Assembly: GCA_048571215.1 (NCBI GenBank)
Contig: CP182352.1
Location: forward strand, 1,952,001-2,016,000
DNA from: Halarcobacter sp.
GTDB lineage: Bacteria > Campylobacterota > Campylobacteria > Campylobacterales > Arcobacteraceae
Length of the DNA: 64,000 bases
Reading direction: 5' to 3'
Shown here: positions 24,001 to 30,000 of the stretch, piece by piece
How the letters are laid out: every line of letters starts with the position of its first letter
How positions within the stretch are numbered: position 1 is the first letter of the stretch
Position numbers: made by a program

Positions 24001-27000
24001 AGGTTTATTTTAAACCTATCTTATGAGATTTTTCAAGTTTATTTATAAATATATTTTCATCTTTTTCAATATATTTAAAACTTCCATTTATTTTGTTTGT
24101 ATCTAAGTTATGTGTTTCTATGATTTGATATGCCGAGTCAGGGAGTATTTCTGGAATCCAATCTCTTTAAGGATTTAAATATTCTGTTTCAGAAGCATAT
24201 TTTATTGCTTTTTTTTTCTCCTTTTAAGACAGCTTCATCAAGGTTACGAGCTTTTATGGTAATGATGCGTTCTTCAATTAAATCAATATTTTCTGATAAT
24301 ATTTATCGGTTTTTTTTTGTTTACCCAAAGTTGTTGTTATATATAGTGTTTTAATTGCAAATACTTTTTTTATATTAACTCCTTTGGATGATGATAACGC
24401 CAAGCTAAGTGGCGACTGATACGGAGTGACATTTGTGAAAAAATGGCGAAGCCATTCGCAAATGCAGTGGAGTATCAAGCGTCCGAGTGAGCATAAGCGA
24501 ACGACTTGAGCACATTGTTATGCGTTGCACGATTCTAGCCTCGTAGTGATTTCTTCACCCAACCCGATCATTCGATTGTGGTGATTCTCGCACAGCAGCC
24601 AAGCCCGAGACTTGGGGACAAGGTAATACTCAAACCCATAGCACTCGCCAATAACCTTTTGAATTGCAACTGGCGTGGCTTCATAGATTGGATAGAAAGG
24701 CATTTGAACATCTTCAACCACAAACCAGACCACTTCGACCGGATCGGGTACCAACTCCGTGATTCTTTCGAAACCTTTTCCATCCATGAACTCTCTCGAC
24801 GCACTTGGTATTGCGAAAGCCTCCCACCACCAGCGCCTATCACCACCTACGACAAAGTGTGCAACAAGTTCTTTGTAAAGCCGTTCGCCCTCGATGCTTG
24901 GAACCTGCGAAAATTCTCTCTGGGGAATGGATAGTGAACGCAAGGCGTTGGCAATTTCTTCAGTGACGATATCCATACTCTTCCTTTTTACGCATAACGT
25001 TTGAGTTGAGAAATATTTGAGCCGCAGGGTCAAATATTTCTCTCCAATGTTTTGTTATAACTTTTTTTCAATTTCAGTTTTCAAATCACTTTCAATACAT
25101 TCTTCAAAATATTCTAATCCAAACTTTATAATAGCACTAATTGGAATTTTAAAATCTAAAGTCATCTTTTTAGCACCATTATCATCTAATAGTTTCCCAT
25201 GAAAAGTTTTACTTGCCAAATCAATATTCCATTCGCCATTAATTTCATACTTTTTATTTTTAACTTCTATATTTTTTTTCAATTCGTATCCTTATGGTTA
25301 TAACGTTTAAAATGAGCTAATAAATTAGCCGTAGGGTAATTTATTGGCTCCACTGATTTGTTAGACATTGAGTTTTTCAAAATCAAAATCCTCATTAAAA
25401 TACTCTTTATAAGCTATTATATGGGTTTGGGGAATTCCAAATGTGTATTCAAATATATTGATAATCTCATCAGGCTCAGGATTAACAATTACTACTTTAG
25501 GAAGTTCCATTTTCTTACAAAAAGCCTCTCTAAATAATTGAATAGTTCTTGTATCAGTTCTTGGAAAAGAATATCCTATGATAATGATTTCATTAGCATT
25601 GATAATTTCATCTTTTGCAGTTTCCCATAGCTCTATAAAGAGATTTGCAAATAAGGTATATTTTTTATCCTTAACAGGTGGGATAATTAAAGGCATAGTA
25701 ATTACACCTTGTTCTAGTCCTGTACGCTGTGGAATATTAAGCTCAGCTCCAAGTAGTTCTTCGTATATTTTTTGTGCTTCTGGTTGATTTGTTACTCCAG
25801 CTTTAAACATCACTTTATTTTTATTTTCTTCTAAAGCTATATCATCAAGAATATTTGGTGGGTAATAAAAATATGAAAATGGCTCGTATGGGCCTTTGAA
25901 TCTTCCGTCATAACAGTGATAGGGACTATATGTATGCTCGTAAATATAAAAAGATGAGTTATCAATTTTTTGATTTAATTTAAGTAGCTGTTCTCTGTCT
26001 GGCTGAGGGTATGTAGTAAGCCAATTTGTTGAGCCATGAAGCTTTATTAACTTAGTATATTTATGTGTACAATCTTCTACATCAGTCCATTGGTCTTTAT
26101 ATATTTTCTCAGGTTTCAAACAATAACCAAAATCAGTTTTCCAATTTGTGTTTTCAGACAATGCCCGATCTATCAACGTATCCCAGTTAAAAGTAATAAT
26201 GCTGTCATCTTTTCTAAGAGACTTGACTAATTTAACATGTGCATTGGAAGTAGGTCCATTTTGTATTTCATTAATGATTGACGTATATAAAAAGATAAGT
26301 TGTAAATATGCCTTGTAGTAGTAGATGTTATTCCATATTGAATTTTCTTTCATTTGTTCTAAAAGCTTTTTTTCTACATGAGTATGAAAATCTTCGATGT
26401 CAAATGAGGAAGTGAAAAAGTCATTAATATCTATATCGAAATCCTGTTTACCAATGTTGATTATATCTCCAATTAGTACCCATAAATCATCACTGATATC
26501 CAAATTTTGAAACGTATTAAAAAAATCATTTGCTATAGGCATTGTGCAATTTGTAGGTGATGAAGAATAGGCTTTTGAAGCTCCTGCTCCAATAATAAAT
26601 GTTCTCATATGCAGTCCATCTTTCAGTTGTCTAACTAATTATTAGTAATACATTATATATAAATAATATATAAAAACATCTAATATCTTAACATTAAAAA
26701 TGTAAAGATATTAACTCAATTAAGCCTTAAATAGTCTAAATTTAATGAAATACAAAATAATATAAGAAAAAGTAGAATATTTTTTATGTTAAATTATCAA
26801 GGTATATCCTTAATATCTTATCATTTTGTATGACTATTGGGTGAAAATCTTGATAGTTTAACAAAATGATAAATATATTATATTGTGTTATTGTGAAACT
26901 ATTATCAATATATTTAGGTGTAAATAAACTTTTGCTGTACCTCTTGGCTTTCTCGACTTTCTTTTCTGAAAAAGAAAGTAGCAAAGAAAACATCCCACAG

Positions 27001-30000
27001 GTTTCGAAGGTGAAACTTCCCTCGCTTATTATTCATCCCTTTTGAGTGCCTAAAAACTTGCTAAAATGTGCTCCCAGCACATTTCTTTACGCTTCAAACA
27101 GTTTAGTCACTTGTTTTCAAAAGAGATAAATAAACACTCGGCTTCTCAAATGCGGGAAGCTGGGATAAGGACCTTTGCATTTTTTGTTACCATTTTATTT
27201 AAGCTGGTGTGATACTCAAATAGTATGAGAAAGTTCAAAGCTAGTGTATTTAGTCCAGACTTTGTTGAAGCCGGAAGTTTTCTAATTATTTTCGGAAAAG
27301 ACTGAGGACCGTTCAACTGGATAAAAGGTACTGAATGTACCTTTTAGGAAGGCGTTTCGCAGGTCAGAAGATAATTAGAAAGCTGTAGGGAACTTTAGCT
27401 TCAACAACCGTCTAGTTGCTTTTTGTCTTACTTTTTACAACTAAAAAGTGAGAAAGCGGAGAGCTTTGCTCTACAAGACAATTGCAGACAATAAAAACTA
27501 TTTTCAAAATATTTGAGTAAAGTTAAACTTTTACTGTACGTCTTAACTTATTCCGACTTTCTTTTGTAAAAAAGAAAGTAGCAAAGAAATTATCCCACAG
27601 GTTTCGAAGGCGGAAGCTCCCCTCGCTTATTATTCATCCCTTTTGAGTGCCTAAAAACTTGCTAAAATGTGCTCCCAGCACATTTCTTTACGCTTCAGAC
27701 AGTTTAGTCACTTGTTTTCAAAAGAGATAAATAAACGCTCGGCTTCTCAAATGCGGGAAGGTGGAATAATGACCTTTTCATTTTTTGGTACCATTTTGTT
27801 TGGATTTGTGTAATACTCAAATAGTATGAGAAAGTTCAAGGCTAGGGTATTTTAGTCCAGACTTTGTTGAAGCCGGAAGGTTTTTAATTATTTTCGGAAA
27901 AGCCTGAGAATGTTTGAGGAGAGAAAAGTGACTAGATGTCACTTTTTCGACGAGTTTCGCAAGGCAGAAAATAATTAAGAACCTGTAGGGAACTTTAGCT
28001 TCGACAACGCGTCTGGTGGCTTTTATTTTACTTTTACCACTAAAAGTAAAGAAAGCGAAGAACTTGTTCTTCAAGAGGGTGCATACAATAAAAACTATTT
28101 TCAAAATATTTGAGTGTAGTTAAATTTCTACTGTACGTCTTAACTTATTCCGACTTTCTTTTGTAAAAAAGAAAGTAGCAAAGAAATTATCCCACAGGTT
28201 TCGAAGGTGAAACTACCCTCGCTTATTATTTATTGTTTCTGTTTTGTAAAACTCACATAAAAATATGCTCCCAGCATATTTGTTCTGTTCAAACAGTTAC
28301 AAAACTTCTCCGAAACAATAAATAAACACTCGGCTTCTCAAATGCGGAAAGGTAGGAAATTGACCTTTTGCATTTTTAGTACCATTTTATTTGGATTGGT
28401 GTAATACTCAATATATATTTTGAAAGTTCAAAGCTAAGCTATTTTAGTCCAGACTTTGTTAAAGCCGAGTGCTTTGCTTTTTAAAGCGGAAAAAGTCGAG
28501 AATGTTTGACGAGAGAAAAGTGACTAACTCACTTTTTCGAGGAGTTTCGCAGACTAGCTTTAAAAAGTAAAGTGGGAGGGAACTTTAGCTTCAACAACGC
28601 GTCTGGTTGCTTTTTTGCTTCTTTTTTACAACTAAAAAAGATGAAAGCGAAGAACTTGTTCTTCAAGACAAATACAACATTGATAAAAAACTAAGCTACA
28701 ACACACTAGAATTCCAAAAATTTAAAACAAAGTTACTTTTTATGAGAAAACAATTATTGCCACTTGCTTTAGGTGGTCTTGCTATTGGTACTACAGAATT
28801 TGCTATTATGGGATTATTGCCAGATGTTGCAAATGATTTAGATATTAGTATTCCTGTTGCGGGTCATTTAATCTCTACTTATGCTTTAGGAGTGGTTATT
28901 GGAGCACCTATTTTAGTAGCTTTAAGTGCAAAATTTCCTGCTAAAAATATCTTAATAGTTTTTATGGTGTTATTTACATTTTTCAACTTTTTATCTGCTA
29001 TTGCACCAAATTATTCTACACTTTTGATATCTAGGTTTTTAAGTGGTTTACCCCATGGTGCTTTTTTTGGTGTGGGTACTGTTGTTGCTGCAAAACTTGC
29101 CCAAAAAGGTAAATCAGCACAAGCAATTGCTGTGATGTTTACGGGGCTTACTATTGCAAATGTTGCCATGGTTCCCCTTACTACATACCTAGGTCATACT
29201 TTTAGTTGGAGAATTGCATTTGCTATAGTTTCACTTATTGGCTTAGTAACAGTTTTCTTTTTATATAAAAATCTTCCAAAACAAAAAGAGGTGAAAACTA
29301 TAACACTAAAAGATGAATTCCAATTTTTAAAGACAATTAAGGCTTGGCATATCTTAGCTATAGTAGCAACAGGTTTTGGTGGCTTGTTTGCTTGGATTAG
29401 TTATATCGCTCCACTACTTATTCATGTTACAAATTTTGAAGAGGGTAGTGTCTCTTATTTGATGATAGTTGCAGGTCTTGGAATGTTGGTTGGAAATATA
29501 GTTGGTGGATATTTAGCAGATAAAAGAAACCCTATAAAAGTAGCAATTTTTCTTTTATCTATGATGTTTATATGTTTAGTATTAGTATTTTTACTATCTG
29601 AATATAAGTTTGCAACTATAATTCTTACCTTTTTATGTGGAGCCTTTGGTATGTCTATTGGAGCACCTATCAATATTATCATGTTAGATAGTGCAAAACA
29701 CTCTGCCCTACTTGGAGCGGCATTTTTACAAGCTGCTTTTAATGTAGCAAACTCTTTAGGTGCATTTTTAGGAGGTATCCCTTTATTTTTAGGATTAAAT
29801 TACAACTACCCTGCACTAAGTGGCGCGTTTATGGCTTTATTAGGGGTTGGACTATGTTTATATTTTTTAAAAAGATATAAGGTTGAGAAATAATTTCAAA
29901 TATCAATACTTCTATAGATAATGAGACTTAAAAGTTGAAATTTTAAAAAGATCTTAAAAACTTAGGTCTTAACATGCTACTATCATCTATTGCCATATCT

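What a model noticed while it worked through the whole genome (the two positions that open the first line are those of the whole stretch)
26609..28756. Multicopy ~225-nt structured RNA family (R/R') in divergent pairs, unknown to Rfam
The genome carries about 50 copies of a ~225-nt structured non-coding RNA gene that has no Rfam family. Copies fall in two paralogous subfamilies (R, 31 full copies; R', 20 copies) that lie back to back around a shared ~90-bp promoter region and form ~600-bp units, often in tandem (three units at C1:1978609-1980756). The family is multicopy in many Arcobacteraceae and was not found outside that family.
Evidence so far: nhmmer on the genome: 66 hits, 31 full-length R, 20 R'. 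Strand: in the predicted stems 185 G-U cells against 26 A-C cells, so the RNA is the reverse complement of the first alignment. Ten-helix, 72-pair structure: on a MAFFT alignment of 36 copies 88% of cells pair against 43-53% when partners are slid by 1-3 columns; on a covariance-model alignment of 54 copies from 28 loci of several genera 66 of 72 pairs show changes on both sides, 86% paired against 46-55% slid, 0 of 500 shuffles reach the observed values. Rfam 15 at E up to 1 over two arrays (37.9 kb): no family. Model search: 54 of 151 Arcobacteraceae genomes, 11 of 22 genera, full-length matches, up to the cap of 14 scored per genome; [...]
(Added by a program. Inside this text positions count along the whole contig: contig position 1,952,001 is position 1 of the stretch shown here. 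"Call 12" and the like, gene names such as g00115 and contig names such as C1 are that model's own, and its searches are not shown. The text may have been shortened before it was handed on; [...] marks where a part breaks off. The agent that wrote the report below was given it as the finding of a first reader that could run no searches.)

Follow-up and report, generated by a model that had tools for sequence, protein, structure and literature searches.

The report
Folded DNA repeat heading gene-capture sites
The repeat is real but looks less like an RNA gene than like a large, folded, mobile DNA element found in many bacterial groups, and in this genome it sits at the head of about seventeen gene-capture (integron) sites that have lost their own enzyme.

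Summary
The repeat, its copy number (31 R, 22 R'), divergent pairs, tandem units and covarying structure are confirmed. Two claims fail. It is not confined to Arcobacteraceae: a model built only from this genome's R' finds full-length homologues in Beta-/Gammaproteobacteria, Spirochaetota and other Campylobacterota; one Ralstonia genome has 52 copies, 32 in divergent pairs. And an RNA gene is not the best reading: outside Arcobacteraceae the apex loop is mostly C-GNA-G, a DNA mini-hairpin (72 of 87; 81 of 124), spacers show no shared promoter, and copies come and go at orthologous sites. Best reading: a giant REP/REPIN-like, non-autonomous element acting as folded single-stranded DNA, mover unknown. 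All 7 full IS110 copies sit inside R/R', with matching bridge-RNA loops. Transcription is untested. The scan had not recorded this repeat on other DNA; it had recorded other integron-like arrays.

The parts
24392..24523 (-). attC site closing the third cassette
   Evidence: strict attC scan; sequence
24518..24976 (-). Cassette 3 gene, DUF6756 protein (start taken at the ATG after the RBS)
   Evidence: Pfam PF20541 E 1.5e-21; sequence
24992..25060 (-). attC site closing the second cassette
   Evidence: read by eye; nearly the same as the attC at C1:2829095 found; not returned by the strict scan itself
25055..25282 (-). Cassette 2 gene, 75 aa, no family
25298..25366 (-). attC site closing the first cassette
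   Evidence: strict attC scan
25361..26608 (-). Cassette 1 gene, 415 aa SIR2-like, probable anti-phage protein
   Evidence: weak Pfam SIR2_2 E 1.4e-4, below cut-off; PADLOC SIR2 E 8e-7
26633..26657 (-). attI-type site, same motif as the site beside the genome's true intI
   Evidence: motif found upstream of 24 of 30 intI genes of relatives
26658..26920 (-). intI promoter region with a decayed intI 5' remnant
   Evidence: 70-72% identical to the intI-upstream regions of L034 and L043; the alignment runs into the first intI codons
26897..27195 (-). R copy 1 (profile span includes the remnant tail at its low end)
   Evidence: 330 bits
27196..27248 (.). Spacer of pair 1; carries TTGAGT-N16-TAAAAT on the - strand towards R
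27249..27486 (+). R' copy 1
   Evidence: 252 bits; structure
27496..27796 (-). R copy 2
   Evidence: 321 bits
27850..28082 (+). R' copy 2
   Evidence: 216 bits
28094..28387 (-). R copy 3
   Evidence: 269 bits
28442..28675 (+). R' copy 3
   Evidence: 197 bits
28742..29893 (+). Flanking transporter-like gene (MFS by appearance, recalled label); no R' directly upstream of its orthologue in 7 of 7 congeners

Best explanation
R and R' are two subfamilies of a widespread, non-autonomous mobile repeat of 190-240 nt that works as folded single-stranded DNA: a long branched stem with an invariant internal loop (TGTYTGA opposite GAGTT) followed by a conserved terminal hairpin. Like REP doublets (REPINs), two copies back to back form the usual unit and can bracket cargo. 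SHOWN: fold, strand bias, wide spread, doublets, patchy presence, mosaic copies, IS110 targeting. INFERRED: DNA-level action and mobility by an enzyme encoded elsewhere (most likely an HUH/Y1-type or tyrosine recombinase; not identified). In this genome a fusion of R to the 5' remnant of intI has produced a module R-remnant-promoter region-attI that stands in 17 places, each followed by cassette-like genes, many closed by attC (SHOWN); the single intact IntI probably serves them in trans and each attI brings its own promoter region (INFERRED).
For: Homologues in other phyla from a model of this genome's R' alone: 23 matches at E<1e-4 in 90 loci, best 3e-10, some at copies the selection pattern had not picked (E-values rough, loci preselected). 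Core motif upstream of the terminal hairpin in 40 of 130 elements against 16 of 1190 random windows. Arms of 37 distant copies pair with their own partner at -30.6 against -12.8 +/- 4.6 kcal/mol crosswise; own partner best in 30 of 37. C-GNA-G loop at the apex in 72 of 87 (includes many copies from three genomes) and 81 of 124 metagenome copies, GNRA 7, UNCG 0 (C-GNA-G was tested first); 32 GNA triloops against 9.4 in shuffles, GNRA 2 against 5.4. GCGNAGC is the DNA mini-hairpin; the RNA counterpart of the related 4-nt loop is far less stable (PMC13037366, passages). Ralstonia: 52 copies, 32 in 16 divergent pairs; Dechloromonas 12 of 13 in pairs. Downstream of rplT: present in 6 of 25 congeners in four layouts. 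Neighbours are unrelated genes. attI motif 25 times in the genome (3-10 in shuffles), 17 downstream of R in its sense; linkers 70-94% identical to intI-upstream DNA of several lineages; 7 of 8 strict attC sites lie in R arrays; one IntI, 398 bits against cut-off 265. IS110: 7 of 7 full copies inside R/R'.
Against: No partner enzyme found: no R/R' beside 40 Y1 loci or within 1.5 kb of 30 intI genes; no co-occurrence with intI (19 genomes, 17.4 expected) and only a weak one with Y1 (31, 25 expected, p 0.07, kin not independent); no IntI, IS110 or Y1 match in 122 metagenome loci. The window's own copies lack the GNA apex (long A/T stems capped by TGAAT, GGG, CTAAC). The strand advantage is larger with RNA energies (-8 to -13) than DNA energies (-3 to -4). 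My attC control showed only 1 GNA triloop among 35 hairpins in 8 bottom strands, so it did not calibrate the loop test. No clean empty-versus-filled site or target duplication was obtained. Integrase-less attI sites are common in relatives without R, so R is not required for them, and most R/R' in relatives have no attI nearby (attI seen in 4 of 29 loci).
Confidence: 0.58

Rival explanations
1. Multicopy non-coding RNA genes, or an RNA that spreads through an RNA intermediate: R and R' are transcribed from the shared spacer and act as structured RNAs.
For: Strong covariation and G-U bias; conserved non-paired internal loops; TTGAGT-N16-TAAAAT kept upstream of R in most spacers and in R-only copies; a CTTCGG loop variant in the side hairpin of some R copies; 3' flanks of distant copies are A/C-rich (G+T 0.36; below 0.5 in 75 of 87), which could be untemplated tails; Bp1_684, an RT-PCR-positive Burkholderia candidate, overlaps the 3' tail of a copy that shares the terminal hairpin.
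Against: GNA triloops instead of GNRA/UNCG; promoter sites at chance level, none for R', no terminator; variable spacers in Betaproteobacteria; no reverse transcriptase in this genome; IS110 insertions into the invariant core are tolerated.
Confidence: 0.24
2. R/R' are themselves recombination sites of a cassette system, giant attC analogues used by IntI or a related tyrosine recombinase.
For: gene-R'-gene-R' arrays in relatives (L083, L079, L067); a Rheinheimera pair brackets a gene with a true attC; one copy overlaps the 3' end of a tyrosine recombinase with an IntI-type N-terminal domain and follows an attC-like sequence (L089); upstream genes lean to the same strand (14 vs 9; 38 vs 31). 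The DUF1874 motif was proposed as such a multistem attC (PMC5737381, passages).
Against: No RYYYAAC...GTTRRRY ends by inspection; true attC sites lie beside R; no co-occurrence with intI; most distant copies lie between housekeeping genes, downstream gene usually convergent (16 vs 6; 46 vs 21); only 1 of 158 loci searched with IntI had such a neighbour, none of 122.
Confidence: 0.12
3. A passive repeat spread only by homologous recombination and gene conversion, with no dedicated enzyme; the fold is kept for a host role such as mRNA 3'-end protection between convergent genes.
For: Copies are patchworks of a few segment variants exchanged at conserved boxes; downstream genes are mostly convergent; no mover found.
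Against: New, unrelated insertion sites in each genus and phylum need a way in that homology does not give; invariant unpaired bases across phyla suggest a protein partner.
Confidence: 0.06

Closest known systems
REP / REPIN elements with RAYT (Y1 HUH) transposases
   Same: Extragenic, multicopy, hairpin-forming, inverted doublets with a spacer, tandem clusters of doublets, singlets (PMC3116915, passages); targeted by IS110 elements (ISPpu9, listing; ISPpu10, abstract).
   Different: Each arm is 190-240 nt, branched and strand-specific, against about 20-40 nt for REPs (recalled); no RAYT flanked by it was found; the same fold spans several phyla.
Integrons and CALINs (IntI, attI, attC cassettes)
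   Same: True IntI, attI motif, attC-closed single-gene cassettes with typical cargo: glyoxalase, methyltransferase, TIR/Mrr, kinase, toxin-antitoxin, a beta-lactamase-family protein.
   Different: About 20 attI-type sites for one intI; 17 are headed by R plus an intI 5' remnant, several nested inside arrays. Published surveys could not search attI outside classes 1-3 and found 95% of CALINs without an intI pseudogene, looked for by the C-terminal domain (PMC4889954, passages), which a 5' remnant would escape.
IS110 bridge-RNA elements that target REPs or structured intergenic sites
   Same: RNA loop matches the repeat; circle junction gives a TATAAT box; CT core (general scheme recalled, PMC11208160 seen as listing only).
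   Different: Two paralogues (63% identical) share the donor end but are aimed at different sites, one in R and one at the invariant core.
DUF1874 motif (Weinberg 2017) and Bp1_684 (RF02421)
   Same: DUF1874: multistem motif with a conserved internal loop in consecutive intergenic regions, possibly ssDNA. Bp1_684 overlaps the 3' tail of a Caballeronia repeat that shares the terminal hairpin.
   Different: Neither model hits R/R' or the core of 20 distant loci.

Membership tests
REP/REPIN | Multicopy, extragenic, hairpin-forming | tested here: met
REP/REPIN | Inverted doublets as the main unit; tandem clusters | tested here: met
   23 divergent junctions here; 32 of 52 and 12 of 13 copies paired in two Betaproteobacteria
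REP/REPIN | Short (about 20-40 nt, recalled) simple palindrome | tested here: not met
   190-240 nt branched fold
REP/REPIN | Cognate RAYT gene flanked by the repeat | tested here: not met
   0 of 40 Y1 loci, +/-1.5 kb; these are a subset of the Y1 matches
REP/REPIN | GTAG-type guide tetranucleotide and cleavage by the transposase | not tested
   no such invariant seen in alignment A4; not searched formally
REP/REPIN | Excision or insertion intermediates | not testable with these tools
   no raw DNA reads available
attC site | RYYYAAC...GTTRRRY ends within about 55-140 nt | tested here: not met
   strict attC scan returns 8 sites, none an R/R' copy
Integron (the locus and its sister arrays) | Integron integrase | tested here: met
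   one TIGR02249 hit, 398 bits, about 1.08 Mb from the window, so in trans only
Integron (the locus and its sister arrays) | attI site directly before the first cassette | tested here: met
Integron (the locus and its sister arrays) | attC-closed cassettes in one orientation | tested here: met
Integron (the locus and its sister arrays) | Pc promoter and IntI-mediated recombination | not testable with these tools
   a TATAAT lies in the attI motif, but activity needs experiments
Non-coding RNA gene | Covarying secondary structure | tested here: met
Non-coding RNA gene | Discrete transcript | tested here: inconclusive
   one metatranscriptome, contigs of relatives only, no strand or ends
Non-coding RNA gene | Promoter and terminator conserved across the family | tested here: not met
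   a box is conserved upstream of R within this genome only
Non-coding RNA gene | RNA-type loops (GNRA, UNCG) | tested here: not met
MITE | Target-site duplication and terminal repeats matching an autonomous IS | tested here: inconclusive
   flanks of orthologous sites too diverged to read; no autonomous copy found

The most novel reading that the evidence does not exclude
R/R' is the end of an undescribed class of pan-bacterial mobile element that is recognised as a branched ssDNA fold by an unknown enzyme and carries neighbouring DNA; in Arcobacteraceae it has moved integron heads around the chromosome, creating a distributed integron in which one IntI serves about twenty attI sites, each with its own promoter. 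This would supply a new origin for integrase-less cassette arrays.
Probability: 0.25. Interest if true: 0.87.

Novelty: new variant of a known kind. Interest (0 to 1): 0.66.

Why it matters
It names a large structured repeat that occurs in many bacterial phyla, at up to 50 or more copies per genome, with no Rfam family and no mention in the searches run. If it acts as ssDNA, it is a branched natural DNA fold far more complex than REP or attC and points to an unidentified enzyme. The 17 R-headed attI platforms bear on the open question of where integrase-less cassette arrays come from and show how a genome could express many more cassettes than one integron allows. The two IS110 paralogues are a natural example of bridge-RNA re-targeting.

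Tried and rejected
Rfam: nothing on the window at E<=10 beyond chance hits, nothing on the core of 20 distant loci. RNA data: one metatranscriptome with share 0.06; its contigs come from relatives and show no strand or ends. Retroelement partner: no RVT_1 in the genome. IntI as partner: no R near 30 intI genes, no co-occurrence. RAYT/Y1 as partner: none adjacent; the genome's Y1 gene has its own different repeats. Neighbour enrichment: none among 81 and 112 proteins (81 included 64 of 137 listed neighbours plus 17 from Arcobacteraceae; 112 of 131 listed). A loose attC scan gave hundreds of false hits and was replaced. RNAalifold on the mixed cross-phylum alignment gave no structure; arm-pairing and a covariance model were used instead. 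A sequence-only profile of distant copies hits R mainly through the terminal hairpin used for selection; without it only 2 hits at E 11-14, both on R'. Terminator and attC controls did not calibrate the loop test. No replichore bias. Phage and plasmid carriage is rare: 5 viral stretches, 4 large 'plasmid' records with partial hits. In one search three of 40 elements were dropped (two duplicates, one chance core). Literature: nine searches found no description of this repeat or of multi-attI Arcobacter genomes; subscription papers and supplements were not searched.
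Full report
Observation. The window holds three tandem ~600-bp units at 26897-28675. Profiles built from 15 full units find 31 near-full R and 22 near-full R' copies and 27 fragments in the 3.6-Mb genome, with 23 back-to-back junctions. 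Copies are patchworks of a few segment variants. The fold is real: on 19 R' copies 95.3% of cells pair against 42-53% when slid, and 27 of 75 pairs change on both sides; R shows 12 of 51. Rfam has no family for it.

The family is not Arcobacteraceae-specific. In 40 of 130 elements with enough flank, the R/R' core TGTYTGA-hairpin-GAGTT lies upstream, against 16 of 1190 random windows. A covariance model built only from this genome's R' gave 23 matches at E<1e-4 among 90 loci, including Gamma- and Betaproteobacteria, a Spirochaetota genome and other Campylobacterota, best 3e-10, some at copies my pattern had not selected (E-values rough). In 37 distant copies the two arms pair with each other at -30.6 kcal/mol against -12.8 +/- 4.6 crosswise. 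One Ralstonia genome has 52 exact-pattern copies, 32 of them in 16 divergent pairs; a Dechloromonas genome has 13, 12 in pairs. Within the phylum 10 of 301 genomes match a strict pattern, four outside the family, one of those probably by chance. The metagenome scan also hit its limit (122 stretches).

RNA or DNA. Comparative methods cannot easily tell ssRNA from ssDNA (PMC5737381, passages), and G-T excess on one strand fits both. The loops help. Outside this family the apex loop is C-GNA-G in 72 of 87 copies and 81 of 124 metagenome copies, with GNRA in 7 and UNCG in none; among 37 copies GNA triloops number 32 against 9.4 in shuffles, GNRA 2 against 5.4. GCGNAGC is the DNA mini-hairpin, and the RNA form of the related 4-nt loop is much less stable (PMC13037366, passages). 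Two Arcobacteraceae genomes carry this short apex too. Spacers of 20 Betaproteobacterial pairs vary freely, with no shared boxes by eye. In the window promoter-like sites are at chance level and there is no terminator. Against this: the window's own copies have long A/T-rich apices without GNA, the strand advantage is larger with RNA energies, my attC and terminator controls did not calibrate the test, and a TTGAGT-N16-TAAAAT box is kept upstream of R here. The only RNA run gave relatives' contigs without strand or ends.

Mobility. Downstream of rplT the element is present in 6 of 25 congeners, in four layouts. It is absent directly upstream of the window's right-hand gene in 7 of 7 orthologous loci. 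Neighbours elsewhere are unrelated genes. Pairs can bracket cargo: two genes in Ralstonia, a gene with a true attC in Rheinheimera. No mover was found: no reverse transcriptase here, no copy beside 40 Y1 loci or 30 intI genes, and no clear co-occurrence in 161 genomes.

The context that was missed. The genome has one integron integrase (398 bits, cut-off 265) with an attI and attC cassettes. The attI motif recurs 25 times (3-10 in shuffles); 17 of these lie 210-343 bp (one 658 bp) downstream of an R copy in its sense and are followed by a ribosome site and gene. The same motif lies upstream of 24 of 30 intI genes of relatives (four of the six misses end at a contig edge). The DNA between R and attI is 70-94% identical to intI-upstream regions of at least five different intI loci, and in five copies the match runs into the first intI codons and stops at the same place. 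Seven of 8 strict attC sites lie in R arrays, and the cargo is typical of cassettes. In the window: attI at 26633-26657, then a SIR2-like gene, a 75-aa gene and a DUF6756 gene, each closed by attC. Integrase-less attI sites are common in the family: 107 of 161 genomes match the motif, this one most often (19); in many the remnant is preceded by other repeats instead of R, and attI was seen in only 4 of 29 R loci of relatives. So R heads these platforms here but is not required for them. Surveys looked for intI pseudogenes by the C-terminal domain and could not search unknown attI sites (PMC4889954, passages); other origins proposed for such arrays are integrase loss, transposons and insertion at attG sites (10.1101/2022.09.11.507474, passages); action in trans is accepted (10.1101/2025.06.18.660453, passages).

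Parasites of the repeat. All 7 full IS110 copies lie inside it: four identical ones at one site in R, three of a 63%-identical paralogue at the GAGTT core (two in R', one in a hybrid copy). Their left non-coding ends carry loops that match the respective sites and share the donor motif (assignment by eye, from the recalled bridge-RNA scheme). IS110 elements aimed at REPs or structured intergenic sites are known (10.1101/2025.01.17.633520, listing; 10.64898/2026.03.19.712850, abstract). A second short repeat, 21 copies, stands 63-65 bp before 12 R copies and also occurs in the repeat runs beside the Y1 gene and at a truncated Y1 gene; it often cuts off the attC of the cassette before it. It is a candidate end for moving the R-attI module; this is inference.

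How it most likely works. A non-autonomous element, recognised as a branched ssDNA fold by an enzyme in trans, inserts between genes, usually as a back-to-back pair; recombination between copies shuffles segments and makes tandem units. One or more fusions of R to the intI 5' end created R-remnant-promoter-attI modules that multiplied and now take cassettes from the single IntI. Shown: fold, spread, pairing, patchiness, attI and attC anatomy, IS110 sites. Inferred: DNA-level action, the mover, activity in trans. Odds: 0.58, against 0.24 for an RNA, 0.12 for a recombination site, 0.06 for a passive repeat.

Comparison and novelty. It works like REP/REPIN (PMC3116915, passages) but fails membership on size and on a cognate RAYT. 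It is not attC. The locus itself is an integron platform without integrase. Nine paper searches did not find the repeat; a 2026 intergenic atlas does not mention integrons, Arcobacter or multicopy in its main text (10.64898/2026.10.21.760802, abstract and passages), but its database and the supplements of PMC5737381 were not seen and may list it. PMC3521395 (passages) reports an RT-PCR signal for Bp1_684, which overlaps the tail of a related repeat. PMC4690160 had no passage on GNA loops. Look-ups in this scan's earlier notes found no look-alike stretch and several other integron-like arrays. Verdict: new variant of a known kind, interest 0.66.

Noticed in passing
G000 C1:1467507-1468797, 1705067-1706358, 2521360-2522651, 2826475-2827767 (L008, L009, L015, L017) and C1:383490-384773, 424830-426113, 969538-970820 (L002, L003, L005): Two IS110 paralogues with the same donor end and different target loops; every full copy sits in R or R'.
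   Followed up: yes
L027, G000 C1:2553900-2560911: Run of short paired genes with repeated N-terminal segments, resembling polymorphic-toxin C-terminal and immunity cassettes (recalled resemblance), separated by GGGGACAG-type repeats, next to a 177-aa RAYT-like Y1 gene.
   Followed up: partly
G000 C1:548400-548540: Truncated Y1 transposase 5' end fused to the 'leader' repeat that also precedes 12 R copies.
   Followed up: partly
L024:7497-7690 and near C1:898380: ORF-less ~180-bp cassette right after the true attI, repeated later in the array; a similar start follows attI in L043.
   Followed up: no
inside R/R' copies, e.g. L005:10430-10702, L011:5795-6063, L010:6546-6786: Two kinds of 18-23-nt palindromic inserts occur at several different stem or loop positions of the repeat.
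   Followed up: no
L002:10917-11162 (C1:387916-388161): Hybrid copy joining R' and R close to the two IS110 target positions, as if the middle of a pair had been deleted.
   Followed up: partly
L028-L057 and L346-L375: Arcobacteraceae intI genes sit at many different chromosomal sites; several other palindromic repeats lie at intI 3' ends and, in integrase-less versions, directly before the intI 5' remnant (L361, L363, L365, L366, L367).
   Followed up: partly
L089:727-1637: A family copy overlaps the 3' end of a tyrosine recombinase (PF00589 + PF13495, 30% to IntI) and follows an attC-like sequence.
   Followed up: partly
L092, L099, L102, L107, L120, L121: Burkholderiaceae carry divergent pairs that share the terminal hairpin but have a different upstream body; Rfam Bp1_684 overlaps the tail of one.
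   Followed up: partly
L306-L325 and other distant loci: 3' flanks are strongly A/C-rich on the folded strand; Ralstonia copies often end in CACCA-like sequence.
   Followed up: partly
G017 C1:1493871-1505340: Seven attI-like variants spaced 1-2.4 kb apart in one direction.
   Followed up: no
G000 C1:1938564 and 1940120 (about 12-13 kb left of the window): Two further attI-type sites without an R copy.
   Followed up: partly
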